Position numbers and translations under genes: made by a program
Assembly: GCA_964539385.1 (NCBI GenBank)
Contig: CAZIJC010000002.1
Coordinates: 16,001-80,000 of the forward strand
DNA length: 64,000 nt
DNA from: an uncultured Anaerolineales bacterium
GTDB lineage: Bacteria > Planctomycetota > Phycisphaerae > FEN-1346
Reading direction: 5' to 3'
Shown: positions 23,605-44,556 of the stretch, piece after piece
Layout: each line of letters opens with the position of its first letter
How positions within the stretch are numbered: the stretch's first letter is position 1
Notes under the pieces: model-generated
What the model saw: only the letters and a program-made list of their open reading frames with translations
Databases searched by the model: none
What the model was told of the DNA's origin: nothing

Positions 23605-23851
23605 GCGTCTCGTTTCCGGGTGTCGTCGCCGGTGTGCCATACGCCGCAGGCTACCGCACCATCCCGCTCGACGCAAGGAAACCGCGCCGGCGGAGCGGCA
23701 AGGTGGCGGGGCGCCGTGCGGCCCCATATTGCGTTGGCGTTGGCGTCGCCGCCGCCCTATCATCCGTTCAAGTTCCTGTCACCGGGGCGGAGGCCGATGC
23801 GCTGAGCGCCATCGAGCCCGCCGCGGGAGCGGCGGGGCACGTACCTGTACG

Positions 23852-27741: not shown

Positions 27742-27990
27742 GTTACAAACCGTTTACACCGTCGAGTCAACAATTGGTGTACAACAGGACGAGAGAGGTA
27801 GTGTGCCAGACCGTCCGTGCCTCGCCGGCAGCGGGCTTTTCGCCGGCGAGCGCCATAGGGAAGCCGGAGAATGCGCGGAACCCTATGTGGCAAGCCGCGT
27901 CTATTCAGGAAAGCGCATGCGCGTCTTCGCCGCGCCGGCGGCGAGAGCGAACGTCCGATACCGAAGCACTCAAGGACCATTACCGAGGGC

Positions 27991-30900
27991 ATGACCATGC
28001 GAACGTCTCGAATCTGGCCGATGGTTGTGGTTTTGACGATGGCCGTCTTCCTGCCGATGGTGGAGGCGGTGCACGCGGCGGCGGCGGAACCGGCCGCCAA
28101 GCCTCTCTCGGCGGAGGAGGCGAAGGCCGTCCGCGAACAGAGCATCTACATCCCTTATGAGAAACTCCGCGAGGTCTTCGAGAAACAGGGCCGCGGGGTG
28201 TTCCTGCCCTACGAAAAGTTCCAGGAACTCTGGAAGGCCGCACGCGACAAGACCGCACCGCCCCCCGAGACCAAGCCACCCATCGACGCCCTCATCACCG
28301 AGGTCTCCGGCGTGGCCACCGTCTCGAAAGACGTCGTCACGGTCGAGGCCACACTGAAGTTCGAGGTCCTCAAGGAGGGCTGGAACGAGGTTCTGCTCCG
28401 CCTGCGCGACGTCGCCCTGACGAAGGCGACGCTCGGCGCCGAGCCCGCGCGCATCATCTCCGACGCCAAGGCAGGCTACAAACTCCTGGTCGAGAAGAAG
28501 GGCAAAGACCCGCAGCAGTTCACCCTGACCCTCGGCTTCGCCAAGGCCTACTCGAAGGCGCCGGGCCAGAACAGCGTCTCGTTCGAGAGTCCGCAGGCCC
28601 CGGTGAGCAAGTGGGAGGTCCGCATCCCCGAGTCGGGCGTCAAGGTGAACATCCATCCGCTCCTGGCAGCCACCGAGGTCCCGCCCGCCGCCGGCGCCGA
28701 CGCCAAGCAGACCGTTGTCCTGGCGTTCGTCGGCGCTGCGCCCACCGTCCGGATCGACTGGACGCCCAAGGCCGAGGGCGCCAAGGGCCTCGCGGCGCTG
28801 GCGAGCGTCCAGATCGAACAGCAGACGGCCATCGAAGAAGGCGTCACGCGGACCCGTGCGACGCTGGCCTACGAGATCAGCCGGGCGGAACTGGCGAGCC
28901 TCCAGGTCGAGGTCCCCGCCAACCAGAAGGTGGCCGGCGTCTTCGATCCGAACGTCCGCGAGTGGTCGGTGGAGGCCGCCGGAGGCGTCCAGAAGATCAC
29001 CGTCCAACTGTTCGAGCCCGCCAAGAAGACGCAGAACCTGACGCTCGAACTCGAAAAGTTCAGCGCCGAGCAGCCCCCCCAGGTCAAAGTGCCCGTCATC
29101 AAGGCCCTCGGCGTGGGACGCCAGCAGGGCGTGGTCGTCGTGCAGGTGGCCTCCGGCCTGCGGGCCGAGGCCGTCGCCCACGCCGGCCTCCTGCAACTCG
29201 ATGCGGCCGAACTGCCCAAGACGCTCGCCAAGGGCAAGTGGGATTTCTCCTACCGTTACGCCGCCCTGCCGTTCGACCTGACCCTCGGCGTCGAGAAGGT
29301 CCAGCCGCGCATCCTCGCCGACTCGCTCGTCGAGGCCCACCTCGGCACCGAGGCGCTGACGGTGGATTTGCTGACCGTCTATACGGTTGAGCGGGCCGGC
29401 GTGTTCCGTTTCGAGATCGACGTGCCTGAAGGCTACGACGTCCGCAGCGTGCGCGGCGCGGCCGTGGGCAAGGCCGTTCGCCCCGCCCAGGTCGAGGCCC
29501 ATCACCTGGAGGGCCCGAACAAGACGCGCCTCGTGGTGAACCTGTCGCGCAAGGCCATGGGCAAGGTGGCCCTGGCCGTCGGGCTCCACAAGACGCTGCA
29601 CGAGCCGGACCTCCTGGCCCCCACCGGCAAGGCGGCCAACATCCCGCTGGCCATCCCGCGCGTGGCGCCCGACAGCGTCCAGCGCGAGACGGGGCGCCTG
29701 GTCGTCTATGCCCCGGAGAGCCTTCGCGTCAACCCTGATAAACCGACCGGCCTGCGGACCGTTACGTTCCAGGAAGCGACCAAAGACATGCGGCGGACGC
29801 AGCGCGGCGGCGAGCGGCCCGTCCTGGCGTTCGCCTACACCGAGGAGCCGGCGTCGTTGGCCCTGGCCGCCGAACGCCGCAAGCCTCACGTCACCGTGCG
29901 GCAACTGCTGGTGGCGCGGATCGATTCGGGGGTCGTCAAGTACTCGGCCACGTTCTTCTACGACGTGCTCTACAGCGGCGTGAAGAACCTGCGGCTGGAC
30001 GTGCCGCAGGACCTCGCCGCCGACATCCGCGTCACGCCCCTGACCATTCGACATGAAACCATTGCCGAGAAGCCCGACGATCTCGCCGACGGATACGTCG
30101 CCTGGCAGTTGACCGGCGATGCGGAGTTCATGGACTCGGTCGGGGTGACACTGACGTGGGAGAAGAAGATCGAGAAACTCGACGTCGGCAAGAGCGTGAA
30201 CCTCGATATTCCGCGGCTCATCCCGCGCGACATCGACCGGGCATGGGGACAGATCGTCCTGGCCAAGGCAGAGACCATCGACGTGCAACGGGCAGAGGGC
30301 GAGGAGAAGGTCAAGGGCCTCAGGCCCATTGACCCCCAGCACGACCTGATGCCCGGCGCGGCCGTCAAGGCCGCGGCCCGGGCCTTCGAGTTCCACGAGG
30401 ACTGGGCCCTTACGGTCGTCGCCACGATGTACAAACTCGAGGACATCAAGCACACCGCCATCGAACGGGCCTTCGTCCGGATGGTCGTGACGCGAAGCGA
30501 CCTCATCAGCGTCCAGGCCCTCTACCGCGCCCGAAGCGCCCGGCAGCGGCTTCGGGTGAGGCTGCCGGCCGATTTCCACGAGTTTGACCGTGACCCGCTG
30601 CGAATCAACGGCCGCCCCGTGTCGCTTGAACACAGCGGCGACCGCACCACGTTCTTCGTGCCGCTGATCTCGCTGACACCCGACGAGCCGTTCCTGCTGG
30701 AACTGCGGTACACCGTCAAGGGCGCCGGCATGACGCTCGAGTGCCCCGTCTTTCCGGAAGAGCCCGCCGTCCAGAAAGTGTACCTGTCGGCGTGGCTGCC
30801 TGAGGAATGGGACTTCCTCGGCTCGGTCGGCCCCTGGACCGACGAGTTGTACTGGCACGTGCGTTTGGGCGACCTCGTCTGGTATCCGGCGCCTTATCGC

Positions 30901-31506
30901 AACGACGCCTCACTGCTCGAATGGGTTCGCCAGGGCATGAAGACCGAAGGCGGCGCCGAACAGAGTTTCCAGACCGACGGTCGGCAGTACCTGTTCTCGA
31001 CGCTGCGGCCCGAGGAGCCGCCCGACGGAAGCCTCCGCCTCGTCGCGATGGACAGCGACTACCTAGCCATCCTCGTATTCGTCGTCATCCTGGCGGTCGG
31101 CATCGCGCTCCTGCTGACGCCGTGGACGACGCGGTGCATCGCCGTGGGCGCCTTCATCACTCTGATGGTCCTGCTGGGCGTGTTCGCACCGACGTTTGCG
31201 GTCCAGGTAACCCGCAGCGTGATGGTTGCCGCCGTCTCCATCGTGGCGGTCATCTGGCTCCTGTGGTACCTGCTGTGGACCCGCCCGCGCGATCCGCGCA
31301 TCGGCCAGCGCAAGAAGGCCCGCCGGGCGGCCCGCGAGGCGGCGCTCGCCAGGGCCAGGGCCGCTGCGCAGCAAGCGGGCGCGCCGGCGACCAAAGCGAC
31401 GCCGGCCAAACCTCCGGCCGAGAACGTAGCGCAGACCGCCGAGGAAGGCCAGCCGCCGCCACAAGACAATGACGACGACAAGGAAGGGGGTGACGACGAT
31501 GCGTAA
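27991..31506 (+). CDS. giant secreted/membrane-anchored protein, module 1 of a triplicated family (about 1,170 aa; signal peptide, large extracytoplasmic domain, 3-4 C-terminal TM helices, acidic cytoplasmic tail)
   Basis: It has a signal peptide (MTMRTSRIWPMVVVLTMAVFLPMVEAVHAAAA) and an early IYIPYEKLREVFEKQGRGVFLPYEKFQELWKAA motif. Its C-terminus is FQTDGRQYLFSTLRPEE...LAILVFVVILAVGIALLL...ITLMVLLGVFA...VAAVSIVAVIWLLWYLLW, followed by a KKARRAAREA basic tail and then DDDKEGGDDDA. Confidence 0.6.
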   Translation: MTMRTSRIWPMVVVLTMAVFLPMVEAVHAAAAEPAAKPLSAEEAKAVREQSIYIPYEKLREVFEKQGRGVFLPYEKFQELWKAARDKTAPPPETKPPIDALITEVSGVATVSKDVVTVEATLKFEVLKEGWNEVLLRLRDVALTKATLGAEPARIISDAKAGYKLLVEKKGKDPQQFTLTLGFAKAYSKAPGQNSVSFESPQAPVSKWEVRIPESGVKVNIHPLLAATEVPPAAGADAKQTVVLAFVGAAPTVRIDWTPKAEGAKGLAALASVQIEQQTAIEEGVTRTRATLAYEISRAELASLQVEVPANQKVAGVFDPNVREWSVEAAGGVQKITVQLFEPAKKTQNLTLELEKFSAEQPPQVKVPVIKALGVGRQQGVVVVQVASGLRAEAVAHAGLLQLDAAELPKTLAKGKWDFSYRYAALPFDLTLGVEKVQPRILADSLVEAHLGTEALTVDLLTVYTVERAGVFRFEIDVPEGYDVRSVRGAAVGKAVRPAQVEAHHLEGPNKTRLVVNLSRKAMGKVALAVGLHKTLHEPDLLAPTGKAANIPLAIPRVAPDSVQRETGRLVVYAPESLRVNPDKPTGLRTVTFQEATKDMRRTQRGGERPVLAFAYTEEPASLALAAERRKPHVTVRQLLVARIDSGVVKYSATFFYDVLYSGVKNLRLDVPQDLAADIRVTPLTIRHETIAEKPDDLADGYVAWQLTGDAEFMDSVGVTLTWEKKIEKLDVGKSVNLDIPRLIPRDIDRAWGQIVLAKAETIDVQRAEGEEKVKGLRPIDPQHDLMPGAAVKAAARAFEFHEDWALTVVATMYKLEDIKHTAIERAFVRMVVTRSDLISVQALYRARSARQRLRVRLPADFHEFDRDPLRINGRPVSLEHSGDRTTFFVPLISLTPDEPFLLELRYTVKGAGMTLECPVFPEEPAVQKVYLSAWLPEEWDFLGSVGPWTDELYWHVRLGDLVWYPAPYRNDASLLEWVRQGMKTEGGAEQSFQTDGRQYLFSTLRPEEPPDGSLRLVAMDSDYLAILVFVVILAVGIALLLTPWTTRCIAVGAFITLMVLLGVFAPTFAVQVTRSVMVAAVSIVAVIWLLWYLLWTRPRDPRIGQRKKARRAAREAALARARAAAQQAGAPATKATPAKPPAENVAQTAEEGQPPPQDNDDDKEGGDDDA

Positions 31507-34500
31507 CACCATCCCCATCCTGTTGCTGGCCTTGGCAGCCCTGACGGCGCCCGCTGCGGCCGTCAACAAGCCGCCGCCGGCCAATCTGCAATCTCAAATC
31601 TCAAATCTCAGATCTGAAATCCGAGATCCGAAATCCGAGAAAACGGTCCGCGAACTGCTCGTCCCGTTCGAGGACCTCAGCGTCCTGCTCGAAGGCGATC
31701 CGAACCGCGTCCTCCTGTCGCGCGACGAGTACGAGGCGCTCCTGGAGAAGGCGAAGAAGCAGGCCGAGGCCCGCGCCCCGCGCCAGGCGCTTCTCGTTTC
31801 GGCAGACTACCAGGCCAAGGCCGGCGACGAGCGGGCCGAGATCGCCGGCACGCTCACCGTCAGTGTCCTGGAAGACGGTCTGCACGCCGTCGGCCTCGAC
31901 GTTGGAGGCGTGGGCCTGCGCGGGGCCACGCTCGACGGCAAAGGCGCCCCGGTCGGCCTCTCGGACGACGGGCGGCTCACACTGTTCGTTGAGGGCAAGG
32001 GCGAGCACAAACTCGTTCTCGACGTGGTGGCCCCGCTTCAGACCACCGCCGCCAGGCAGATCCTGAACTTCCGCCTGCCCACCCCCGCGCCGGCACGCAT
32101 GCGGCTGACCGTCCCGGGCGACGTCGAGGTCAAGTCCGGCGCGCCGGTCGTCGCGCGCGTCTTCGACGAGGCGGCCGAGGTCACGCGCATTGAAATCCTG
32201 CCGCAGCGAGGCGACGTCTCGCTCGTCATGACGCTCAACAGCCGCCTCCTGCGAAAGGACCGCATCGTCGTCGCCCGGTCGGTCTTCCTGGACGAGGTGA
32301 CGCAGGCCTACGAGCGGCTGCACGCCACCGTCTCAATGGCCGTCCTGCACCGGGCCGTCAAGGGTTTCCGGTTCGCCGTCCCGGCGGGGTTCGAGGTAAC
32401 CGACGTCCGGTCGCCGAATCTGGCGCGCTGGGCCATCGTGACCGAATCCGGCCGCCGCATCCTCGACGTCCACCTTCGCGACGAGACGACCGAGACGGTC
32501 GTCCTGAACCTGTCGGCCGTGCGGATGAAGCCGGACCTCGGGGCGTGGGCGCTGGCGAAATTCGAACCGCTCGACGTCGTCGGCCACGTGGCCGTCGTCG
32601 GCCTGGCGGTCGAGGACCGGCTGAAGGCCGAGGCCGTCTCGCCCGAGGGCCTCATCGCCATCGACACGGCAGTCCTCGTGAAGGCGCTGCCGGCCACGGT
32701 GCTGGAGGCCCGGCCGGGTGCGGCAAAGATCCGCCCGGTCGTGGCGTATTACGCGCCGCAAGCGGCGTTCGGCCTGACGGCCCGGTTCGTCAAGCCGCCC
32801 GCGCGACTGCGCGTAACGACCAACCTGCTGGTGATCCTCGAGGACGGCGGCCTGACGGTGCGCGGCGGGTTCGCCCTGGTGCCGGAGCAAGAGAAACGCT
32901 TCGCCTTCGATTTCTCCGTCCCCGCCGGATGGGACGTGACCAGCGTCACGGCCGATGGCGGCGGCGTGACGTTCGAGCGGTACGGCAAGCCCGGCCAGGA
33001 AGGACGCGTCCACGTTCGCCTGGCCCAAGGCGTGCCCGCCGCCGCGGAGCGGCAGGTGCTCTTCACGGCCGTCCACGTGCCGAAGACCTGGTTCAGCGAG
33101 TGGGCCGGGACGGCCATGGAGTTTCCGGTCTTCGCCGTCTCGGGCGCCGCCCGCGACGTGGGCGCCATCGCCGTGGACGCTCGCGACGACATGGTCGTCC
33201 GGCCCGAGGCGCTCGAGCGCCTCATGCCGCTCGATGAGAACGAGAAGACCCGCTACGGTCTCCAGGGCGTGGCCGCCGCTCTCGCCTACCGATACGACGC
33301 CCAGCCGTATCGGGCCCGCCTGACGGTCGAGCGCACCCTGCCGCGCATCACCGCCCAGACCTTCTCGTTCTTCCGGGTCGAGCGTGACGTGCTGGCAGCC
33401 CATTACGAGATCGTCTACGACGTGACGCAGGCCAGGACGCGGCGGCTGAGACTACTGCTGCCGGAAGAGACGCCCACGGCGCTCTCGATCCGCGGCCTGG
33501 GCGGCGTGGCGCTCAAGGAGTACACGAGCGAGATCGTCGGCGAGGAAGGCAGCCGGCGGCGCCGGTGGACCGCCCTTCTGGCCGAGCGCCGAAGCGGCGC
33601 CGTCCGCCTGGCGGTCGATTTCCAGCAGCGGCTCGCCGAACTCGAACCCGAGAACCTGGCCCTGCCGATCGTCGAGGCCGACGGCGTGGCGTACCAGTCG
33701 GGCCTGGTGGCCGTCGAGGGCAGCCCCGAACTCGACGTCGTCGTTACAACCGGGGCCCGGAGAGTCGACATCGGCGAACTCGTCGATGCCGAGTACCAGC
33801 CGGGCCGCCGACTCCTGGGCGCTTACGGGTTCGTCGGCAATACGGCGCCCGTCGCGGTGGCGGTGGCGCGGCATCCCACGCTGGGTCTTCCGCCGGCGAT
33901 CATCCAGCGGGCGGAGTTGGCGACGGTCCTGTCGGCCGACGGCCTGGCCCAGACATCCGCCCGGTTCCTTCTACGGACCAAGGCCCTGTTCCTCGAAGTC
34001 CGGCTGCCCGAGGACTCGACCCTGTGGTCGGCCGCCCTCGACGGCGAGCCCATCAAGCCGCAGCGCGAGGCCGAAAGCATGTTGCTGAACCTTCCGGCCG
34101 CCGCCGCCGGGGCCGTCCGCGACCTGCGCGTCGTCTACGAGACGCCGGTCGACGGGATGGCGTTCTGGAGGGGGCTCGACGTTCCGGCCCCGCGCCTGTT
34201 CCTTCACGCCGAGCCCACCGCCGAGGGTAAAGAGGTGCCGGTGGCGGACCTGGAGTGGCAACTGTTCATGCCCAGCGGCTACCGGGTGATTCGGGCCGAG
34301 GGCAGCGTCGTGACCGGCCAGGTGACGGCGCCGCCGCTGGCCGTGGCCAACGTGGCCGGCGCCTTTTACGCCGGTTCGGGCGGCGTGGATTTTGACCACG
34401 GCGCCCTGGGCCTCGTCCTGATGGGCTTCGGCGGATGCGCGATGAAGAGCGCGAAGGAGATGGCGGTCGGACGTTGGGACTCAGCGCGGGATGGTGCGGA

Positions 34501-37500
34501 TGCGCCTCGAGACTATTTCTATGGCGACGAGTCGGAGGAGGAAGCAGCCAAGACGGGGGAGGATTTGGAGATCGCCGGCGGCGCCACTTTGAGCATGAGA
34601 GAGAAAGCCTCGCGGAGCGCCCGCCCACACGGTGCCAAGGACGCCAACCGGCTTGCGATTCGGACGGGGGAGCGCAGAGCGGCCGACGAGGCGGGAACCG
34701 GGGCTAAACCCGCCGACAAACCGCCTTCCGTCGGCACAGCCCCGGCGCCGAAGACCAAACCGGAGCCGGCCGCACTCACGCCTCGCGCGCCGCCCAAGAG
34801 GCCCGTAACGCCCGCGAAGAAGGAGGATGCTGCCAAAAGGAAACTCCATCGGGCCTGGGCACTGGAGGGCGTCGCCAGCCTCAAGATCGACCTCGTCAAG
34901 ACCGGCGAGGCCGTCACGTTCCAGAGCCTCGGCACCGAGCCTCGCCTGACACTGACCGTCGTGGACGCCGGCCGCATGGAGGCGCTGGCGTGGGCGCTCG
35001 CGCTGGCGGTGCTGGTCGTCGGTCTGGCGCTGACGTCGCGGCCGGCGGCCGCCAAGGCGGCCTACGTCGTCGGCGTGGGCCTGGTGGCGACGCTCATCCC
35101 CGTCATCACGGGCCGCATCGAACTGGCGATGCTCGTCAACGGGGCGTTCTACGCGGCGTGCCTGCTGATCCTGTACTACCTGGTGGCGGGTTGTGTGCGG
35201 TGGTTCGCCGGCAAGGTGAGCGGCACGTTTGCGCCTCCGGCGACTGCGGCGGCGGGGATGGTGCTCGCCATCGCCGCAGGCGTGCTGCTGGCCGGCGGCG
35301 CATCGGCCGTCGCCGACCAGAAGGGCGCGCCGTACGTCATCCAGGTGGTGCCCCCGCCGAAGCCCGTCAAGGTGCCGGCCGACGCCATCATCCTGCCCTA
35401 CGATCCCGCCTCCAAGACGGGCATCCAGGACGCCGACCGCCTGCTCGTGCCGTACGCCAGGTACGTCGAACTGTGGAACCAAGCGTATCCCGAGAAGCCC
35501 ATCGGCAAGAAGAAACCGCCGGCGCCGTACGCGCTGGCCGGGGCGGCGCTGACGGCCACGCTCAAGGGCGAGGAGTACCTGCTCGTCGAAGGGCATATCG
35601 ACATCGACGTCTACACCGACTCCTACGCCGTCGTGCCGCTGCCGCTGGAGGGCGGTGTCCTGGCGAAGGCCGACCTGGACGGCGCTCCCGCGCGGCTGAG
35701 CGTTGCCGAGACGGCGCCCGCGCCGAACCGGAAGAAGTCGTCGAAACCGCTGCCACAGTCCTTCGTCGTGCTCTACGTTTCGGGCAAAGGGCGGCACCGT
35801 CTTGACCTGGCGGCGCGGATGCGGCTGCATCGGCGCGGCGGATGGCGCGGCGTCGAAGGGCGGCTGCCGGTCGCCCCCGCCACGGCCCTGGCGCTGACCG
35901 TCCCGGACGCCGGGACAGAGGTTCGCCTGGGCGGCGTACCGGACCGCGCCTCCTACGACACGAAGGCGGCCGGCCAGACAATCGAAACGGCCCTCGGCGC
36001 GGGCGGCTCGGTCTCCATTCAGTGGCGGCCGAAGGTCAGCGAAGGACAACTCGACCGGACCCTGACCGCCGGATCGAAGGCCGTACTGGACGTTCAGGAA
36101 GACAGCCTGCGGCTGGTGTGGTCGCTTCACCTTGAGTTCCGCCGCGGCGAGCGAGACTTCTTTACCGTCGAGGTGCCGGGCGGCTACACCGTCGAGAAGG
36201 TGGAAGGGACGAACATCCGGGGATGGGAGGCCAAGCAGGCTGGCGAGCGGCAGGAGGTGACCGTGACCCTCCTGAAACCGGCCAAGGGGTCGGAGGACTT
36301 CACGATCACCATCTGGCGACAGGCCGATGCGGGCTCCTCGCCGGTGGCGGGTGGGGAGTTCGACGCCCCGGTCGTCGGTGTAACCGGTGCGCTCAGGCAC
36401 ACGGGGCAACTCGTGATCCGTCGCAGTCCGCTCCTGGACCTTCGGACGGTCGCTACCAGCGGTGTCCGCCGCGACGATCTGCCGCCCGAACCGAAGAAAA
36501 CGGGAGGCGGCGCGGGGGCGACCGAGAGCCCCCTCGGCATCCGCCCGCAGGAGGCGTACCGTTTCGTGGCCACGCCGTTCTCGGTCCGTCTGGCGGCGGC
36601 GCCCGCCGTGGCGAAGAAATCGGCGACCGTCCAGATGATCGTGCGCGTGGCCCAGCGCGAGCGGAGCATGGAGGCCCGGGCGACGCTCACCGTCCGGAAC
36701 CGGCCGCTTTACTGGGCCCGGTTCGTCGTGCCGCCCGACTTGAAAGTGGACCGCGTGCTGGCGCCCGGCACGTTCGAGTGGGCGCTGACCGACGAGGCGG
36801 GTCGCAGGGTCCTGACGGTGTACCTGGCAAGCGGCGTGCAAGGCGCGTGCCCGATCCTTCTGCAGGGCAAACTGGGCGAGGACCGGGAAACGCTCGATAC
36901 CGCCGTGCCGCACCTGGAGGTCCTGGACGTCGATCGCCAGCAGGGCGACATCGTCGTGCAGGTGGACCCGGCGTTCGAGGTGCGGACGGAGGCCCTTGAG
37001 AACATCGAGCGGGCGCTCCTGCACCGCGCCGGCGGGTGGCTGAGCAGCGACCAGAAGACCCTGGCCGCGCTGGCCCTCCACTACACGCGTCCCGATTACG
37101 CGGGGCGGCTGGTTCTGACGGCGAAAAAGCCGGATGTCACGTGCTTCACGGTCACGAACGCGCGGGTCACCGACCGGTCGATCGACGAGACGATCCTCGT
37201 CAGTTGGACGATCCGTGGCGCCGGTGTTCGCGACGTTTCGCTGGTGCTGCCGGCGTGGATGAAGGACGCCCGCATCAGCGTGCCTCTGCTGAGGCAGAAG
37301 ACGATTACGCCGGTTGCGGATGATGCGGCGTCGGTCCGCGTGCACCTGGAACTTCAGGACGAGGTCATGGGCGAGTTGCGCGTGCTCATCGAGAACGACC
37401 GTCTGCTGGCCGGCGGGACGCACGACGCGCCGATTCCGAGAGTCGAGACCGGCCGGACCGACCGCCGCTACGTTGCCCTCGAGAGCGCCGGTCGCGATGA

Positions 37501-39343
37501 GGTCATCGTCGAGGCGCGCGAGGGCCTCGAGCCGCTGAGTCGCCAGCAGAAGGAGTGGGCGGCCGTGGCCCGGATGCTGCGCGGCGGCATGACGCAGGCG
37601 TTCATCGTGTCGCCCGGGGCCGAGGCGCCGCGCCTGGCGTTCAGCACGAAAGAGCGGGAGACCGTGGAGACCGTCGAAGCGAAGATCGGCCTGGCCCAGA
37701 CGGTCCTGGTTTTCGACTCGAGCGGCGCCTACCGGGCCGAACAGACGTATCGCATCGACAACCGGACCGAACAGTTCCTCGAGATCGAACTGCCGGAGGC
37801 GGCCGCCCTGTGGACCGCCGTCGTGGCCGGCCTGCCGGTCAAGCCGACGCTCATGGACGATGCGCGGCGCGTGCGCATCCCGATCGTCAAGACCGCCGAG
37901 GGCGACCTCGATTACGCGGTCATCCTGAAGTACGGAGGCAGCATCGACGACCTCGGCGCGCTGCGTGTGTCGGTCGCGTTTCCGCTCATCCGTCCGGTTA
38001 ACATCAACGCGGAACTCAGCCAGGTGCAGGTGTACCTGCCCGAGACGCACGCCTGGTTCTGGTTCCGTGGAACGATGAGCCGGGTGACGGAAGAGGGCAC
38101 CCTCCAGGCGGGCGTCCTGGCGTACAAGAACAAACTGGCCGGCCGCCTGATGCAGACGCTGCGGTCCGACAACCCGTTTGCCCAGACGCGAGCGAAGACG
38201 AACCTTTTCCAGATTTCTCGCGATATCAAGACGCACAAGCAATCGCTGGGACAGAAGTACTACGGAAACGAGGCGCTGCAATCGGAACTGTCGAACGCGG
38301 GCGTGGTCCTCAAGAACGTCGACAAGGAGATCCAGGCCCAGGAGCAGGCCCAGCAGGTGGACGCCGACTTCAACAACGATCTGATAAGGCAAGCGTACGG
38401 AGAGCAGCACAATCGCCGGGCGCGGAACCTCGTCCAGGACCTCGGCCCCAACTGGAAGGCGCAGCCGCAGCAGACGGGTGCCCGGCCGGCCGACCAGTTC
38501 GACTTCAACGACGCCTGGCTGGCCGAGAACCGGCTCGGCAACAAGGAGGCCGAAGCGCGGCAGAAGAAGGGCGCCGCACGGTTCCAGCTGGGTGGACAAC
38601 AGGGCGCTGCGGTGCAGCAGCCGGTCCCGGGGCCGCAGTCGCAGGCCGCAGGACAGATGTTCCAGAGGTTCGCCGGAAAAGACTTGGCCGACCGGCAGGG
38701 GCAGCAAGCCGCCAGGCAGCAGCAGCGCCGCCTCAGCCAGAGCGAGGTCGTCGAGCGGTACCAGCAAAAACTCCAGCAACGGGCCGAACTGGAGAAGAAG
38801 CAACTCAGCGTGAGAGGCACGGGCACGACCGTAGACGGGATCCGCAGCGGGGCGGCCGACGCTGACGCAATATTCCAGTTTGACGTGTATTTGGGGGGGA
38901 AGCAACGTGAGAGGGGGGAAGCATTCAGCCACACCATTCCTGTGGGTGGGCACCCGTGGGTTGCCAGGGCGGGTGAGGTCCCAGCAGGCCTTGCCAGCCT
39001 GGACGTCGAACTGCCGCGCCGCGGCACGCTGTTCCAGTTCACCATGCCGCGCGGTGAGGCCGAGATCACGGCCCGGTCGGCGTCGATGCCGCTCATTGAG
39101 GGCCTGGAGCGCGTGGCCGGTGTGGTGGTGCTCGTCGTGGTGATCGTGCTGGTGCGGCGATGGCTGCGCGGCCGCGAGATCGGTCTGAAAACCCAGAGCA
39201 CGATCGCGACGGTGCTGATTATCCTGGGCGTAGTCGGCATTGCACTGGGTATCTTCCCGGTGGCGGGCCTGCTGGCGCTGGCTGTCGGCGTCGGCGTGAA
39301 GATCAAGTTGTTCTTCGCCCGCCGCAGGCCGGCAGCGGCGTAG
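31499..39343 (+). CDS. giant protein (about 2,610 aa) made of modules 2 and 3 of the same triplicated family, with an internal TM-helix block and a C-terminal TM anchor; a Gln-rich coiled-coil region lies near the C-terminus
   Basis: It has a signal peptide (MRNTIPILLLALAALTAPAAA). Module 2 has the motif LLVPFEDLSVLLEGDPNRVLLSRDEYEALLEKA and ends in FQSLGTEPRLTLTVVDAGRMEALAWALALAVLVVGLAL...LMLVNGAFYAACLLILYYLVAG...MVLAIAAGVLLAG. Module 3 restarts with AIILPYDPASKTGIQDADRLLVPYARYVELWNQAYPEK and ends in FQFTMPRGEAEI...GVVVLVVVIVLV...VLIILGVVGIALGIFPVAGLLALAVGVGV. The start overlaps the module-1 stop (gATGcgTAA). Confidence 0.6.
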   Translation: MRNTIPILLLALAALTAPAAAVNKPPPANLQSQISNLRSEIRDPKSEKTVRELLVPFEDLSVLLEGDPNRVLLSRDEYEALLEKAKKQAEARAPRQALLVSADYQAKAGDERAEIAGTLTVSVLEDGLHAVGLDVGGVGLRGATLDGKGAPVGLSDDGRLTLFVEGKGEHKLVLDVVAPLQTTAARQILNFRLPTPAPARMRLTVPGDVEVKSGAPVVARVFDEAAEVTRIEILPQRGDVSLVMTLNSRLLRKDRIVVARSVFLDEVTQAYERLHATVSMAVLHRAVKGFRFAVPAGFEVTDVRSPNLARWAIVTESGRRILDVHLRDETTETVVLNLSAVRMKPDLGAWALAKFEPLDVVGHVAVVGLAVEDRLKAEAVSPEGLIAIDTAVLVKALPATVLEARPGAAKIRPVVAYYAPQAAFGLTARFVKPPARLRVTTNLLVILEDGGLTVRGGFALVPEQEKRFAFDFSVPAGWDVTSVTADGGGVTFERYGKPGQEGRVHVRLAQGVPAAAERQVLFTAVHVPKTWFSEWAGTAMEFPVFAVSGAARDVGAIAVDARDDMVVRPEALERLMPLDENEKTRYGLQGVAAALAYRYDAQPYRARLTVERTLPRITAQTFSFFRVERDVLAAHYEIVYDVTQARTRRLRLLLPEETPTALSIRGLGGVALKEYTSEIVGEEGSRRRRWTALLAERRSGAVRLAVDFQQRLAELEPENLALPIVEADGVAYQSGLVAVEGSPELDVVVTTGARRVDIGELVDAEYQPGRRLLGAYGFVGNTAPVAVAVARHPTLGLPPAIIQRAELATVLSADGLAQTSARFLLRTKALFLEVRLPEDSTLWSAALDGEPIKPQREAESMLLNLPAAAAGAVRDLRVVYETPVDGMAFWRGLDVPAPRLFLHAEPTAEGKEVPVADLEWQLFMPSGYRVIRAEGSVVTGQVTAPPLAVANVAGAFYAGSGGVDFDHGALGLVLMGFGGCAMKSAKEMAVGRWDSARDGADAPRDYFYGDESEEEAAKTGEDLEIAGGATLSMREKASRSARPHGAKDANRLAIRTGERRAADEAGTGAKPADKPPSVGTAPAPKTKPEPAALTPRAPPKRPVTPAKKEDAAKRKLHRAWALEGVASLKIDLVKTGEAVTFQSLGTEPRLTLTVVDAGRMEALAWALALAVLVVGLALTSRPAAAKAAYVVGVGLVATLIPVITGRIELAMLVNGAFYAACLLILYYLVAGCVRWFAGKVSGTFAPPATAAAGMVLAIAAGVLLAGGASAVADQKGAPYVIQVVPPPKPVKVPADAIILPYDPASKTGIQDADRLLVPYARYVELWNQAYPEKPIGKKKPPAPYALAGAALTATLKGEEYLLVEGHIDIDVYTDSYAVVPLPLEGGVLAKADLDGAPARLSVAETAPAPNRKKSSKPLPQSFVVLYVSGKGRHRLDLAARMRLHRRGGWRGVEGRLPVAPATALALTVPDAGTEVRLGGVPDRASYDTKAAGQTIETALGAGGSVSIQWRPKVSEGQLDRTLTAGSKAVLDVQEDSLRLVWSLHLEFRRGERDFFTVEVPGGYTVEKVEGTNIRGWEAKQAGERQEVTVTLLKPAKGSEDFTITIWRQADAGSSPVAGGEFDAPVVGVTGALRHTGQLVIRRSPLLDLRTVATSGVRRDDLPPEPKKTGGGAGATESPLGIRPQEAYRFVATPFSVRLAAAPAVAKKSATVQMIVRVAQRERSMEARATLTVRNRPLYWARFVVPPDLKVDRVLAPGTFEWALTDEAGRRVLTVYLASGVQGACPILLQGKLGEDRETLDTAVPHLEVLDVDRQQGDIVVQVDPAFEVRTEALENIERALLHRAGGWLSSDQKTLAALALHYTRPDYAGRLVLTAKKPDVTCFTVTNARVTDRSIDETILVSWTIRGAGVRDVSLVLPAWMKDARISVPLLRQKTITPVADDAASVRVHLELQDEVMGELRVLIENDRLLAGGTHDAPIPRVETGRTDRRYVALESAGRDEVIVEAREGLEPLSRQQKEWAAVARMLRGGMTQAFIVSPGAEAPRLAFSTKERETVETVEAKIGLAQTVLVFDSSGAYRAEQTYRIDNRTEQFLEIELPEAAALWTAVVAGLPVKPTLMDDARRVRIPIVKTAEGDLDYAVILKYGGSIDDLGALRVSVAFPLIRPVNINAELSQVQVYLPETHAWFWFRGTMSRVTEEGTLQAGVLAYKNKLAGRLMQTLRSDNPFAQTRAKTNLFQISRDIKTHKQSLGQKYYGNEALQSELSNAGVVLKNVDKEIQAQEQAQQVDADFNNDLIRQAYGEQHNRRARNLVQDLGPNWKAQPQQTGARPADQFDFNDAWLAENRLGNKEAEARQKKGAARFQLGGQQGAAVQQPVPGPQSQAAGQMFQRFAGKDLADRQGQQAARQQQRRLSQSEVVERYQQKLQQRAELEKKQLSVRGTGTTVDGIRSGAADADAIFQFDVYLGGKQRERGEAFSHTIPVGGHPWVARAGEVPAGLASLDVELPRRGTLFQFTMPRGEAEITARSASMPLIEGLERVAGVVVLVVVIVLVRRWLRGREIGLKTQSTIATVLIILGVVGIALGIFPVAGLLALAVGVGVKIKLFFARRRPAAA
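31582..31637 (+). repeat. eight tandem heptanucleotide units (consensus RATCYSA) inside the 5' end of the giant gene
   Basis: The units read aatctgc aatctca aatctca aatctca gatctga aatccga gatccga aatccga. They encode ..NLQSQISNLRSEIRDPKSE.. just after the signal peptide. A 7-nt period is not a multiple of 3. Confidence 0.85.
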
Positions 39344-39473
39344 CCGGGATGAGTTGAGCCGGTTCTTGCGCGCGGCGGCCGTCGCTGGCCGCCGCGCCGC
39401 TCTTTCCACGTGACAAGGCGTGCGGCCTGCCGCTACACTGGTCGGCGTCCAGAATGTGGAAAGGGGTCTGCCG

Positions 39474-39977
39474 ATGGAATGCCCGGCTTGTGGTAATACG
39501 CTGACGCAGATGACGGTGGCGGAAGTTACAGTGGATGTGTGTGAAGGCGGCTGCGGCGGCATCTGGTTCGACAACCAGGAGATCCGGAAGTTGGACGACC
39601 GGGAAGAGGCCGCCGGCGAGGCGCTGCTCGACGTCCAGCGCGACCCCAACGTCACGGTGGATCACGACGCCCAGTGGGGCTGCCCGCGCTGCGGCCACCC
39701 GGCGATGACGCGCCATTTCTACAGCCCGAAACGCGCCGTCGAAGTGGACGAGTGCCCGAGATGCGGTGGTGTCTGGCTCGACGCGGGCGAACTGGCCACC
39801 ATCCGCACCCAGTACGAGAGCGGCGAGGCGCGCCGGGCCGCCCATCGCGAGTTCGCCCAAAGCCTCTACAACGAGCAACTGGCCGGGATGCAGCCGGAAC
39901 GTGCCCCCGTCTCGGCCGAGACGGACGAGGGGGCCGGGCCGACGGAGATGCTCCGCCGCCTGCTCCATTTCATCTGA
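39474..39977 (+). CDS. double zinc-ribbon protein (zf-TFIIB-like / DUF-type Zn-ribbon x2)
   Basis: Two repeats of CPxCG...(GG)(I/V)W(F/L)D..E(I/L) are present: MECPACGNTL...CEGGCGGIWFDNQEIRKLDD and CPRCGHPAMT...CPRCGGVWLDAGELATI. This is the pfam zf-TFIIB-like pattern. Confidence 0.65.
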   Translation: MECPACGNTLTQMTVAEVTVDVCEGGCGGIWFDNQEIRKLDDREEAAGEALLDVQRDPNVTVDHDAQWGCPRCGHPAMTRHFYSPKRAVEVDECPRCGGVWLDAGELATIRTQYESGEARRAAHREFAQSLYNEQLAGMQPERAPVSAETDEGAGPTEMLRRLLHFI

Positions 39978-40209
39978 CGCGGGTTTCTGAAACCGTCAAC
40001 CTGCCAACGGCAGGGCTCGGCGTCCAATCACGTCGCCGTACCGGCGACGGCTCAACGCGGTCCGGCCCCTGCGGGCGGTGCCCAGACCGGAGCACTAAAA
40101 AAGCGGGGCTCGTCGATCCGCTTCGCGGCCGGGTGTTTCGGCAGGGGACGTCCGCCGGTCGCAAGCGGGTACGACGAGCCCGCGTCGAGATGTAAACGGT
40201 GTTCGGGTG

Positions 40210-40638
40210 TTACCTTGGGCGGTCTCCTTCACCCCGTGGGGGCCTGTCGCCATCGCCTCTGCGGCGCCTGTCCAGCCGGTCCCTGTCGCCACGCTCTCTG
40301 TCGCCCGCCCCTTCCGGCCGCATCTGCCGCATGATGGCCTGGAACACGGCCATCCGGACGGCCCTTTCGTCGTCGCCGACGACCTTCTTGACGGCATCCT
40401 GGAAATCGGCCAGGGCCTTCATCAAGCGTGCGGCGACTTCTCCCTTCATGAGTTTTGCGAGGTCGGCGCGCTGCTCTTCGCTCAACTGCGGTCTGGGCGG
40501 CCCTCTGCGCTGGCCTTCGCCGCCCGGCCTGCCCCTAGGCGGGCCTTCTCGTTCCGGCCTTTCCTCCCCGTAGGCCGTTATGGCGAGGCTCCCCGCCACG
40601 ATCACGGCCGCAAGGCTGATCAACAGAATCTTTCTCAT
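40210..40638 (-). CDS. small secreted periplasmic protein, possibly LTXXQ (Spy/CpxP-like) family, with an Arg/Gly/Asp-rich tail
   Basis: It has a signal peptide (MRKILLISLAAVIVAGSLAITAYG) and an LSEEQRADLAKLMKGEVAARLMKAL helix resembling LTXXQ motifs. The repeated RGDRDR tail is low-complexity. Confidence 0.45.
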   Translation of the reverse strand: MRKILLISLAAVIVAGSLAITAYGEERPEREGPPRGRPGGEGQRRGPPRPQLSEEQRADLAKLMKGEVAARLMKALADFQDAVKKVVGDDERAVRMAVFQAIMRQMRPEGAGDRERGDRDRLDRRRRGDGDRPPRGEGDRPR

Positions 40639-43640: not shown

Positions 43641-44426
43641 TCAGCCCCCGAAGAACGACGCGAAAGAGTCTTTGCGGATGGTCGCGTACCAGGGGTCGAG
43701 CATCTCGCGCGGCGTGAAAGTGGCAAGGAGCAGGCCCTCGCCGCCGTCGGCCGTCCGGATGCCGCGCGCGTCCCAGCAGCCGGAGTTCAGCCACCGGTCG
43801 TCGGCACTCGTGTTGCACAGCAGCGTTGGTGTGGCCCATTCGGCCGCGCGGCCGGCGAAGTGAGCGGGGACGACCGTCGGCTTCGTGCCGGGGTCCGGGT
43901 CGGGCCCTGCCATGTGGGCGATGACACAGAAGGCGTCGGCGTCCTCCCTCGCGAGTTCCGCGAAGACCCGCGGGAACCGGACGTCGTAGCAGACGGCCAA
44001 GCCCAGCCGCCAGCCCGCGCACTGGGCAACGACGGGGTCGCTTCCGCTGATGAAGACCTTCTTGTCGAGCGGTGTGAGGCAGCGTTTGCGGTAGCGGACC
44101 TCGGCCGAGGTGTTGCCGCAGGCGAGCGCGTCGTTCGTGGCGGAGTCCTCGGCGGGGCCGGCCGTTCCGAGGATGAGCGCAAGGCCGGCCTCGCGGGCAT
44201 AGGCGGCCAGTTGGCGCTCGGCCCCGCGGACCTCATCCCAGTTGATATCGGCCAAGTCCTCGCGCGCCGCGCTCGGGTAGCCGGTCAGCGCGCATTCCGG
44301 CGTAAGAAGCAGCCGCGCGCCTGCATCGCGGGCCTCGGCGATGCCCTTGGTGATACGGGCGCGGTTTTCGGCGACCGAGTCCGTTACCGTGAAACTCCAA
44401 CACGCGGCGGTTAGTGCTTTGGCCAT
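43641..44426 (-). CDS. carbon-nitrogen hydrolase (nitrilase superfamily) protein
   Basis: It has a catalytic Glu region (LLLTPECALTGY), a Lys region (RKRCLTPLDKKVF), and the Cys nucleophile (WRLGLAVCYDVRFP). It is about 261 aa from ATG 44426. Confidence 0.8.
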   Translation of the reverse strand: MAKALTAACWSFTVTDSVAENRARITKGIAEARDAGARLLLTPECALTGYPSAAREDLADINWDEVRGAERQLAAYAREAGLALILGTAGPAEDSATNDALACGNTSAEVRYRKRCLTPLDKKVFISGSDPVVAQCAGWRLGLAVCYDVRFPRVFAELAREDADAFCVIAHMAGPDPDPGTKPTVVPAHFAGRAAEWATPTLLCNTSADDRWLNSGCWDARGIRTADGGEGLLLATFTPREMLDPWYATIRKDSFASFFGG

Positions 44427-44507
44427 GGCGTGGTCTCTCCAAGCCCCACACAGCATAACAGAAAAAAAGGTACCTGGAACCTTTTTGGCAAGCGGCGCTT
44501 TCGTGGA

Positions 44508-44536
44508 TTGACGGATGCCGCGGCGCCGATTACAAT
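44508..44536 (+). promoter_or_regulatory. consensus sigma70-like promoter upstream of mfd (TTGACG -35, 17-nt spacer, TACAAT -10)
   Basis: The sequence ggaTTGACGgatgccgcggcgccgatTACAATgcgg lies about 20 nt upstream of the mfd ATG at 44557. Confidence 0.5.
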
Positions 44537-44556
44537 GCGGCCACAACCTGGAGTCT

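What the first reader, a model, noticed from the sequence alone, without database searches (positions are those of the whole stretch)
27991..39343. Tandem triplication of a giant (about 1,200 aa) secreted plus multi-TM-anchored module, split into one ORF and a two-module fusion
Three consecutive units share one architecture. Each has a conserved start motif: IYIPYEKLREVF...FLPYEKFQELWKAA in module 1, LLVPFEDLSVLLEG...LLSRDEYEALLEKA in module 2, and IILPYDPASK...LLVPYARYVELWNQA in module 3. A long beta-rich extracytoplasmic region of about 1,000 aa follows in each. Each then has a conserved FQ-containing strand (FQTDGRQYLF / FQSLGTEPRLTL / FQFTMPRGEAEI) directly before a block of 3-4 hydrophobic helices.

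Module 1 is a separate gene ending in a basic-then-acidic cytoplasmic tail. Modules 2 and 3 are fused in one 2,610-aa ORF. The inter-module TM block of that ORF is therefore internal and would thread the chain back across the membrane. I cannot place these in any family I know, including BatD, Tad, autotransporter, RHS or adhesin-repeat proteins. The only gene at the locus boundary is a downstream double zinc-ribbon protein.

A three-paralogue array with membrane anchors suggests a multi-subunit envelope-spanning structure, a fence or scaffold for example. It is the strongest candidate in this window for an undescribed system.
Basis: partly seen in the sequence, partly recalled or inferred. 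Interest (0 to 1): 0.85.

Follow-up and report, generated by a model that had tools for sequence, protein, structure and literature searches.

The report
Three-paralogue membrane-anchored periplasmic protein set
Two overlapping genes encode three ancient sister copies of a very large, unannotated protein that stands in the periplasm on a three-helix membrane anchor, and because the same order, overlap and fusion are kept across Planctomycetota and related phyla, it is probably one still-unknown cell-envelope complex.

Summary
Gene A (27991-31506, 1,171 aa) and gene B (31499-39343, about 2,614 aa) encode three full-length homologous modules (profile comparison E 1e-41 to 1e-45).

Each module has:
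- a signal peptide;
- a conserved N-terminal tip motif;
- about five beta-sandwich domains of the M1-aminopeptidase-N / ribophorin-I fold;
- a juxtamembrane beta-hairpin;
- three TM helices.

The fourth hydrophobic segment at the module 2/3 junction has the shape of a signal peptide with an AxA-type site. Both halves of gene B are therefore periplasmic, and the product may be cut in two.

This is not a recent triplication. In all 80 related loci fetched (Planctomycetota, Kiritimatiellia, Lentisphaeria, Omnitrophota) the order 1-2-3 is kept. Modules 2 and 3 are fused in 47 of the 50 loci where both could be placed. In 72 of 77 junctions, gene A's stop overlaps gene B's start by 8 nt behind a GGAGG.

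No flanking gene is conserved, and the zinc-ribbon gene is not part of the unit. Pfam, NCBIfam, PADLOC and PDB sequence searches find nothing, and no catalytic motif is present.

Best reading: a 1:1:1 inner-membrane-anchored, non-enzymatic periplasmic complex. Its function is unknown.

The parts
27991..31506 (+). Gene A = module 1 (1,171 aa from ATG 27991; alternative ATG 27997, 7 nt after GAGGG)
   Evidence: Orthologues are 50-97% identical, all 'hypothetical' and without Pfam domains.
27991..28086 (+). Module 1 signal peptide (MTMRTSRIWPMVVVLTMAVFLPMVEAVHA/AAA)
   Evidence: Hydrophobic segment; helix 8-27 in the AF2 model. Cleavage is inferred.
28135..28251 (+). Module 1 N-terminal tip motif EQSIYIPYEKLREVFEKQGRGVFLPYEKFQELWKAAR. 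It is nearly invariant among orthologues.
   Evidence: Invariant columns E49-W81; consensus. AF2 predicts two short helices at low pLDDT.
28279..31053 (+). Module 1 all-beta ectodomain, about five beta-sandwich domains (d1 97-262, d2 268-440, d3 441-632, d4 633-815, d5 816-1021 including the FQ hairpin 998-1021)
31054..31290 (+). Module 1 membrane anchor: three TM helices, followed by the conserved TRPRDP
31291..31503 (+). Module 1 cytoplasmic tail: basic, then Pro/Ala-rich, then acidic. Its last codons also carry the ribosome-binding site of gene B.
   Evidence: (disordered)
31482..31506 (+). Coupling junction: GGAAGGGGG (31482-31490), ATG of gene B (31499-31501), and TAA of gene A (31504-31506). 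This makes the 8-nt overlap ATGCGTAA.
   Evidence: The same ATGNNNTAR overlap behind GGAGG occurs in 72 of 77 junctions, counting the window's own. Gene calls in other assemblies also overlap by 8 nt.
31499..39343 (+). Gene B = modules 2 and 3 in one ORF (2,614 aa from ATG 31499; the first ATG in frame is 31469)
   Evidence: The fusion is kept in 47 of the 50 loci where both modules could be placed. One apparent split in another assembly (L086) is due to frameshifts.
31499..31567 (+). Module 2 signal peptide (MRNTIPILLLALAALTAPAAA)
31649..31753 (+). Module 2 tip motif RELLVPFEDLSVLLEGDPNRVLLSRDEYEALLEKA
   Evidence: It aligns to the module 1 motif. Consensus.
31766..34288 (+). Module 2 beta-rich ectodomain, homologous to module 1 residues about 97-940
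   Evidence: hhalign
34289..34918 (+). Module 2 insertion (210 aa here; median 179 in 40 orthologues). It is charged and Ala/Pro-rich, poorly conserved, and lies between the body of d5 and the FQ strand.
34919..35212 (+). Module 2 FQ hairpin (TFQSLGTEPRLTLTV) and three TM helices. TM3 carries the conserved N..FYAA.LL.PYYL.
35213..35317 (+). Internal signal-peptide-like segment: a basic loop (RWFAGKVSG), a hydrophobic core (MVLAIAAGVLLA), then GGASAVA/DQ
   Evidence: In 40 orthologues, 35 have a hydrophobic 12-mer with KD >= 2.0 and 37 have an AxA-type site within 16 aa. Cleavage has not been tested.
35384..35497 (+). Module 3 tip motif AIILPYDPASKTGIQDADRLLVPYARYVELWNQA
35516..38089 (+). Module 3 beta-rich ectodomain (d1-d5 body)
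38093..39025 (+). Module 3 insertion (325 aa here; median 339 in 40 orthologues): three long helices (a spectrin/GAT-like bundle), then Q-rich disorder containing one more helix
39026..39340 (+). Module 3 FQ hairpin (LFQFTMPRGEAEITA), three TM helices and a short basic tail

Best explanation
The two genes make three paralogous subunits of one inner-membrane-anchored, non-enzymatic periplasmic complex. The way they are encoded forces the subunits to be made in equal amounts.

Shown:
- The three modules are homologous end to end.
- Each has an N-terminal signal peptide, or for module 3 an internal signal-peptide-like segment.
- Each has a conserved tip motif, a string of M1-N / ribophorin-I-type beta-sandwich domains, a juxtamembrane beta-hairpin and three TM helices followed by basic residues.
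- The order 1-2-3, the 2-3 fusion and the 8-nt stop/start overlap behind a Shine-Dalgarno sequence are conserved across Planctomycetota and other PVC lineages.
- No other gene travels with the pair.

Inferred:
- All three ectodomains lie in the periplasm, side by side on their anchors.
- Translation of gene B is coupled to that of gene A.
- After module 2's third TM helix the internal signal peptide restarts export. It is probably cut by signal peptidase I, which would release module 3 as its own chain.
- The three chains assemble 1:1:1 into a large, beta-rich periplasmic scaffold or binding platform that serves envelope organisation in these bacteria.

What the complex binds or does is not known.
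For: - Homology.
- Topology: hydrophobic segments and the positive-inside pattern; AF2 models.
- Internal signal peptide conserved in shape.
- Ancient, fixed gene order. All 80 loci keep module 1, then 2, then 3 wherever sequence allows. Each module is orthologous (module 1 50-94% identical, module 2 41-89%, module 3 40-88%), against 20-26% between modules.
- Fusion is kept in 47 of the 50 loci where both modules could be placed.
- The 8-nt overlap with GGAGG occurs in 72 of 77 junctions and in independent gene calls. Even divergent module 1 relatives are followed by a 2,275-2,345-aa gene.
- No conserved neighbours.
- Strong conservation along the whole ectodomain. On average 67% of the sequences carry the commonest residue at each module 1 position, across classes and phyla. 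This is what one expects of extensive protein-protein interfaces rather than a variable adhesin.
- The fold is a non-catalytic beta-sandwich also used by membrane-complex subunits such as OST1.
- No catalytic motif and no family hit.
- The module 1 tree separates Planctomycetota from the other PVC lineages, which is consistent with vertical descent.
Against: - No physical interaction, localisation or phenotype is known.
- All relatives seen come from metagenomes or MAGs. No cultured strain was identified.
- The AF2 inter-domain arrangement is uncertain (pTM 0.43), so the overall shape is unknown.
- The TM helices are only moderately conserved. They may be mere anchors and say nothing about assembly.
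- Divergent two-module relatives exist without a module 1 partner, so a module 1 partner is not obligatory in the wider superfamily.
- Conserved co-expression is compatible with three proteins that act sequentially rather than as one complex.
- Cleavage at the internal signal peptide is untested. AxA-like triplets are common in Ala-rich sequence.
Confidence: 0.5

Rival explanations
1. The pair is a periplasmic substrate-handling platform rather than a structural scaffold. The M1-N / ribophorin-I-type domains would bind unfolded polypeptides, peptides or glycans. The complex would act as a membrane-bound holdase or receptor, or as an accessory to a biosynthetic enzyme encoded elsewhere, in the way OST1 assists STT3.
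For: The best structural matches are substrate-binding N-domains of M1 and M61 peptidases, OST1/ribophorin I, and a 'putative nutrient-binding' protein, lpg2210. The ectodomain surface is very highly conserved.
Against: The similarity is at fold level only (5-13% identity), and the fold is widespread. No partner enzyme is linked in any locus. There are no catalytic residues. There are no Pfam Ribophorin_I or Peptidase_M1_N hits.
Confidence: 0.15
2. The pair is a membrane channel or transporter. The nine to ten TM helices of the three modules would form a conduit, and the ectodomains a periplasmic funnel or tunnel for lipids, polymers or ions.
For: Three 3-TM bundles are made in fixed ratio. 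Module 2's TM3 carries a conserved polar/aromatic motif, N..FYAA.LL.PYYL.
Against: The TM segments of modules 1 and 3 are poorly conserved and lack charged residues. There is no ATPase, no energy-coupling domain and no cytoplasmic domain beyond short tails. The beta-sandwich strings show no match to known tunnel folds such as MCE, AsmA/TamB or Lpt.
Confidence: 0.1
3. These are three independent paralogous envelope proteins, for example adhesin-like or stress/aerotolerance proteins of the BatD kind. They would share an operon but not form a complex.
For: The general layout (signal peptide, beta-rich region, C-terminal TM) resembles BatD-like proteins. One divergent two-module relative sits next to a VWA/YfbK_C gene. 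Two-module relatives occur without a module 1 partner.
Against: No BatD hit or any other Pfam or NCBIfam hit was found in the window proteins or in 35 orthologues. No Bat/MoxR/VWA genes occur in the window locus or in the loci examined. Anchoring by three TM helices with a basic cytoplasmic tail places them in the inner membrane, not on the surface. Sequence conservation is far higher than is usual for adhesins. A phylum-spanning 8-nt overlap and a conserved fusion are hard to explain without selection for co-production.
Confidence: 0.1
4. The fusion is an annotation or assembly artefact. In that case the giant gene B would really be two genes, or the ORFs would be high-GC non-coding reading frames.
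For: The window is 67% G+C and is full of long spurious ORFs. Three of the 50 loci where both modules could be placed show modules 2 and 3 in different frames.
Against: The same continuous ORF occurs in 47 independent assemblies from several phyla. The one apparent split that was inspected (L086, from another assembly) is caused by frameshifts elsewhere, and its junction is continuous. Protein-level conservation reaches 40-97%. AF2 folds both tested parts with high confidence.
Confidence: 0.02

Closest known systems
OST1 / ribophorin I (non-catalytic subunit of the eukaryotic oligosaccharyltransferase)
   Different: OST1 has two domains and one TM helix; each module here has about five domains and three TM helices. 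There is no sequence similarity (no PF04597 hit). No STT3/PglB-type gene is linked. M1 peptidase N-domains match equally well or better, so the resemblance is to a fold, not to OST.
N-terminal beta-domain of M1 (and M61) aminopeptidases, LTA4 hydrolase and TAF2
   Different: The modules have no thermolysin-like catalytic domain and no HExxH. There are no Pfam Peptidase_M1_N or Peptidase_M1 hits. Here the domain is repeated in tandem and membrane-anchored.
BatD (PF13584, 'oxygen tolerance') of the Bat aerotolerance operon
   Same: BatD is also a secreted beta-rich protein with a C-terminal membrane anchor, found in Bacteroidota and PVC-type genomes. This description rests on my own knowledge.
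   Different: No HMM match even at E = 1 in 35 orthologues. No MoxR/DUF58/BatA/BatB/BatC neighbours. Each module here is about twice BatD's size, there are three of them, and each has three TM helices.
FbcH cytochrome b/c1 precursor of Bradyrhizobium, and viral glycoprotein polyproteins cut by signal peptidase
   Same: In both, one ORF encodes two membrane proteins separated by an internal signal peptide that restarts export and offers a signal-peptidase site. The FbcH case is from my own knowledge. Viral examples are reviewed in PMC7926653 (found).
   Different: The proteins are unrelated. Cleavage here is only predicted from the n-h-c shape and AxA-type sites.

Membership tests
BatD / Bat aerotolerance system | Match to the BatD profile (PF13584) | tested here: not met
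   No Pfam hit at E <= 0.1 for either window protein. No BatD hit at E <= 1 in 35 module 1 orthologues. NCBIfam gives nothing.
BatD / Bat aerotolerance system | Operon context with MoxR ATPase, DUF58, VWA proteins BatA/BatB and TPR protein BatC | tested here: not met
   The window flanks carry sugar-utilisation genes, ClpB, Lnt-like and Mfd. No flanking gene is shared by more than 6 of 81 loci. Neighbours differ.
M1 aminopeptidase / LTA4 hydrolase | N-terminal saddle-shaped beta-domain fold | tested here: met
M1 aminopeptidase / LTA4 hydrolase | Thermolysin-like catalytic domain with HExxH...E zinc site | tested here: not met
   No HExxH in any module. No Peptidase_M1 hit. The models are all-beta plus TM helices.
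OST1 / ribophorin I | Luminal tandem beta-sandwich plus C-terminal TM anchor (fold level) | tested here: met
OST1 / ribophorin I | Sequence-family membership (PF04597) and association with an STT3/PglB-type transferase | tested here: not met
   No Pfam hit. No such gene lies next to the pair in any locus examined. A partner encoded elsewhere in the genome was not tested.
Autotransporters, RHS and adhesin-repeat proteins | Beta-barrel translocator, RHS/YD repeats, or Big/cadherin/FN3-type repeat profiles | tested here: not met
   No Pfam or NCBIfam hits. The C-terminus is three TM helices, not a barrel.
Signal-peptidase-processed polyprotein (FbcH type) | Internal segment with basic n-region, hydrophobic h-region and a small-x-small c-region, placed after a cytoplasmic loop | tested here: met
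   The window sequence is RWFAGKVSG-...MVLAIAAGVLLA-GGASAVA/DQ. Of 40 orthologues, 35 have a hydrophobic core and 37 an AxA-type site. Examples are shown.
Signal-peptidase-processed polyprotein (FbcH type) | Actual cleavage into two polypeptides | not testable with these tools
   This needs N-terminal proteomics or immunoblotting.
Anti-phage defence systems (PADLOC) | Match to any PADLOC model | tested here: not met
   No hits for gene A, gene B or the zinc-ribbon protein.

The most novel reading that the evidence does not exclude
The pair encodes a core, PVC-superphylum-specific envelope machine. It would be an obligate 1:1:1 heterotrimer, or a higher oligomer, holding about 3,000 residues of periplasmic beta-sandwich on nine to ten TM helices. 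It would be made through a rare bacterial polyprotein route in which an internal signal peptide is cleaved by signal peptidase I. It would help determine the unusual PVC cell plan, for example periplasm width, membrane invagination, or an FtsZ-independent division or budding apparatus.
Probability: 0.2. Interest if true: 0.85.

Novelty: categorically new. Interest (0 to 1): 0.65.

Why it matters
PVC bacteria have an atypical envelope, and many conserved genes of unknown function are thought to underlie it. This pair is about 3,800 codons of unannotated, strongly conserved coding sequence.

Its genetic layout has been frozen across several phyla. The three paralogues stay in fixed order. The 8-nt stop/start overlap is kept in 72 of 77 junctions. 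The fusion across an internal signal peptide is kept in 47 of the 50 loci where both modules could be placed. Constraints of this kind normally mark subunits of one machine.

If that is the case here, the pair gives a concrete, testable handle on PVC envelope biology. It would also add a bacterial example of two membrane proteins made from one precursor by signal-peptidase processing. If instead it turns out to be a passive structural protein set, it is still a large family that deserves a curated profile.

Tried and rejected
1. Known families. Pfam, NCBIfam and PADLOC scans of both proteins gave nothing. A Pfam scan of 35 orthologues and a PDB sequence search with the module 1 profile also gave nothing.

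2. Conserved partners. ORFs from 81 loci (the 80 fetched plus the window) were clustered all against all. Apart from antisense shadow ORFs, no cluster is shared by more than 6 loci, and the zinc-ribbon gene by 5. Gene calls with Pfam labels in six further contigs show unrelated neighbours.

4. Peptidase function. Rejected: no HExxH or GxSxG, and almost no Cys.

5. Split genes for modules 2 and 3 in L086. These are frameshifts in a long-read assembly.

6. Names or cultured hosts. Three homologue searches and two cluster look-ups returned only 'hypothetical protein' records from MAGs and metagenomes. Literature searches found nothing on this family.

7. RNA elements and terminators. There are no Rfam hits in 27000-40500. 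Promoter and terminator scans are at chance level.

8. The AFDB Foldseek library was unavailable. The representative-library search listed only close module 1 relatives, so the distant tail of its 5,101 hits could not be inspected.
Full report
**What is in the sequence**

The window is about 67% G+C and is full of long spurious ORFs on both strands. Two of the long ORFs are real genes.

Gene A is ORF 27871..31506 (+). Its plausible starts are ATG 27991 and ATG 27997, just behind GAGGG. From 27991 it encodes 1,171 aa.

Gene B is ORF 31469..39343 (+). Its plausible start is ATG 31499, which gives MRNTIPILLLALAA... It lies 8 nt before the end of gene A, so the two genes share ATGCGTAA. The sequence GGAAGGGGG sits 8 nt upstream of that ATG.

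A hydropathy scan gives the following layout:
- Gene A has an N-terminal signal-peptide-like segment and three C-terminal TM helices (residues 1055-1138 of the long ORF). A strongly basic, then acidic, tail follows.
- Gene B has an N-terminal signal peptide.
- Gene B has an internal block of three TM helices (1167-1248) plus a fourth hydrophobic segment (1254-1283).
- Gene B has three C-terminal TM helices (2540-2617).

**The three modules are homologous**

I split gene B at residue 1253. BLASTP then gives:
- module 1 vs 2: 24% identity over 629 aa, E 6e-17;
- module 1 vs 3: 23% over 752 aa, E 2e-20;
- module 2 vs 3: collinear pieces down to E 5e-7.

I built alignments of 35-40 orthologues for each module and compared them as profiles:
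- module 1 vs 2: probability 100%, E 1.5e-41, 1,014 columns;
- module 1 vs 3: probability 100%, E 3.9e-45, 900 columns;
- module 2 vs 3: probability 100%, E 8.7e-43, 1,177 columns.

The alignment runs from the signal peptide, through the N-terminal motif, to the FQ strand and the TM block. In it IYIPYEKLREVFEKQGRGVFLPYEKFQELW lies on LLVPFEDLSVLLEGDPNRVLLSRDEYEALL. No further copy exists in the window.

**Structure**

An AlphaFold2 model of module 1 built from 35 orthologues has mean pLDDT 79.5, with about 85-90 in the ectodomain. Its pTM is 0.43, so the domains are reliable but their mutual arrangement is not. The model shows:
- a signal-peptide helix;
- two short low-confidence helices that carry the nearly invariant tip motif;
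- an all-beta region from 100 to 1021;
- a beta-hairpin at 998-1021 that runs straight into the first of three TM helices;
- a disordered tail.

Within module 1, segments 268-440, 441-632 and 633-815 are detectably homologous to one another (hhalign probability 85-94%, E 1e-7 to 7e-6). The first and last domains are not detectably related to these three by sequence.

A second model covers the C-terminal 572 residues of module 3. It shows:
- d5 as a confident sandwich (pLDDT > 90);
- three long helices (pLDDT about 90);
- a Q-rich, mostly disordered stretch;
- a confident hairpin (pLDDT 85-94);
- three TM helices.

No module contains HExxH or GxSxG, and each has only 2-3 cysteines. Each module is therefore a non-catalytic stack of about five beta-sandwich domains standing on a three-helix anchor.

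**Topology and the internal signal peptide**

In all three modules the residues after the third TM helix are basic:
- module 1: TRPRDPRIGQRKKARR...;
- module 2: RWFAGKVSG;
- module 3: KIKLFFARRRP.

This fits an out-in-out-in path that ends in the cytoplasm.

In gene B that cytoplasmic loop is followed by a hydrophobic core (MVLAIAAGVLLA) and then GGASAVA/DQKG. This is the n-h-c shape of a Sec signal peptide with a small-x-small site. The shape is conserved. Of 40 orthologues, 35 have a 12-residue core with mean hydropathy of at least 2.0. Also, 37 have an AxA-type triplet within 16 residues, for example AQA/Q, ALA/Q, AFA/Q and AHA/Q.

It does so through what looks like the retained signal peptide of module 3. 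Whether signal peptidase I cuts there is inference. A bacterial precedent for such a polyprotein is the Bradyrhizobium cytochrome b/c1 precursor FbcH (my own knowledge). Viral glycoprotein precursors work the same way (PMC7926653, found).

**Relatives and conservation of the layout**

Module 1 finds 954 relatives in the 5.8-billion-protein collection. The best 120 are 53-97% identical over the full length. All are 'hypothetical protein' and none carries a Pfam domain. A profile search of 1.84 billion cluster representatives finds 5,101 proteins at E <= 0.001 and 1,427 at E <= 1e-30.

A scan of one genome per GTDB species found 274 loci, of which 80 were fetched. They come from Phycisphaerae, Pirellulales, Thermoguttaceae, Planctomycetaceae, Kiritimatiellia, Lentisphaeria/Victivallales, Omnitrophota and a Verrucomicrobiota MAG.

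The layout is the same everywhere:
- In every locus with enough sequence, the order is module 1, then 2, then 3.
- Each module is most similar to its own counterpart: module 1 50-94% identical, module 2 41-89%, module 3 40-88%. Between modules the figure is 20-26%. The triplication therefore predates the divergence of these lineages.
- Modules 2 and 3 share one ORF of 2,500-3,400 aa in 47 of the 50 loci where both could be placed.
- One apparent split in another assembly (L086) turned out to be frameshifts, with the junction itself continuous.
- Gene A's stop overlaps gene B's ATG by exactly 8 nt (ATGNNNTAR), with GGAGG 7-9 nt upstream, in 72 of 77 junctions, counting the window's own. Independent gene calls show the same overlap.
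- Divergent module 1 relatives of 1,085 and 1,096 aa are still followed by genes of 2,345 and 2,275 aa.

A neighbour-joining tree of module 1 separates Planctomycetota from the other PVC lineages, as expected for vertical descent.

**What does not belong**

I clustered all ORFs of 81 loci (the 80 fetched plus the window). Apart from antisense shadow ORFs, no gene is shared by more than 6 loci, and the zinc-ribbon protein by only 5. Pfam-labelled neighbours in other contigs are unrelated to one another. They include TPR, a two-component system, FtsK, TrkAH, fucosidase and OEP.

In the window the flanks are:
- a NanM-symporter fusion and a DHDPS-family gene, both on the minus strand;
- an 872-aa secreted protein;
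- the double zinc-ribbon protein;
- ClpB, an Lnt-like gene and Mfd.

The unit is the two genes alone. There are no Rfam hits, and promoter and terminator matches are at chance level.

**A graded insertion**

Between two homologous anchor points, the ...YLP..W strand and the FQ strand, the spacer length differs by module:
- module 1: 47-67 aa, median 51;
- module 2: 142-434 aa, median 179;
- module 3: 268-418 aa, median 339.

**Interpretation**

Four features are the signature of subunits that must be made together and in equal numbers:
- three ancient paralogues in fixed order;
- a stop/start overlap conserved across phyla;
- a conserved covalent fusion;
- no other linked gene.

At a typical module 1 position, 67% of the orthologues carry the commonest residue, across classes and phyla. 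That fits extensive protein-protein interfaces better than it fits an adhesin.

I therefore favour a 1:1:1 inner-membrane-anchored, non-enzymatic periplasmic complex, a scaffold or binding platform for the envelope, at confidence about 0.5. What is shown is the homology, architecture, fold, conservation and genetic coupling. What is inferred is the periplasmic location, the cleavage, the assembly and the role.

The rivals are:
- a substrate or client-binding platform in the manner of OST1 or M1 N-domains (0.15);
- a channel or transport conduit (0.1);
- three independent BatD-like or adhesin-like proteins (0.1);
- an artefact (0.02).

The remaining probability is 'something else'.

**Limits**

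Every relative seen comes from a metagenome or MAG. No cultured carrier and no publication were found (literature). The AFDB structure library was unavailable. The distant tail of the profile search could not be listed.

Divergent two-module proteins of 2,190-2,373 aa (Sedimentisphaerales and others) share the layout but stand without a module 1 gene. One of them sits next to a VWA/YfbK_C gene. The wider superfamily is therefore more varied than the core pair.

**Novelty and score**

The pair belongs to no curated family (Pfam models to 2025, NCBIfam release 20 of June 2026, PADLOC) and to no described system. Only its domain fold is known. I rate it as a new kind of conserved envelope protein set, with interest 0.65. 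The conservation and the encoding are striking and give clear experiments, but the function remains unknown.

Noticed in passing
window 20878-23763 (-), with 19944-20861 (-): A single 961-aa ORF fuses a NanM/Kelch beta-propeller (N-acetylneuraminate epimerase, PF24996) to a sodium:solute symporter (PF00474). It lies next to a DHDPS/NanA-family gene, which looks like a sialic-acid-type uptake and processing fusion.
   Followed up: no
window 25123-27741 (+): An 872-aa protein with a signal peptide has no Pfam match. Among the fetched loci it is found only in three closest relatives (L001, L003, L004).
   Followed up: partly
window 39420-39977 (+): A protein with two Zn_ribbon_TFIIB domains (PF13453, E 2e-25) lies just downstream of gene B. 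It keeps that position only in about 5 closest loci, so it is not part of the conserved unit.
   Followed up: yes
window 27970-30858 (-) and 34481-39655 (-): Very long antisense 'shadow' ORFs (962 and 1,724 aa) lie opposite the two genes. Their counterparts cluster across loci only because they overlap conserved coding DNA. They are high-GC artefacts, not genes.
   Followed up: yes
L002, L003, L007, L009, L010, L020, L022: MAG records titled 'uncultured Anaerolineales' carry a module 1 protein 57-90% identical to the window's (87-90% for L002 and L003), comparable to records labelled Planctomycetota or Phycisphaerae. The taxon labels of these co-assembly bins look wrong.
   Followed up: no
P0412-P0415, P0421; loci L089, L090: Divergent two-module relatives (2,190-2,373 aa, 20-24% identity) have the same layout of signal peptide, ectodomain, TM block, ectodomain and TM. 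They have no module 1 gene upstream. In L089 the upstream gene is a VWA/YfbK_C protein, and in L090 an ECF sigma factor lies nearby.
   Followed up: partly
window 43641-45071 (-) vs 44515-48003 (+): A CN_hydrolase (Lnt-like) ORF on the minus strand overlaps the first ATG of the Mfd ORF by about 550 nt. The strongest NCBIfam mfd match to the ORF begins only at residue 338, so the true Mfd start probably lies downstream.
   Followed up: no
P0196 (2,372 aa, Thermoguttaceae MAG): One database protein matches the module 1 profile over its first about 1,100 residues and continues for another about 1,250 aa. It is either a module 1-module 2 fusion or a frameshift at the 8-nt overlap.
   Followed up: no
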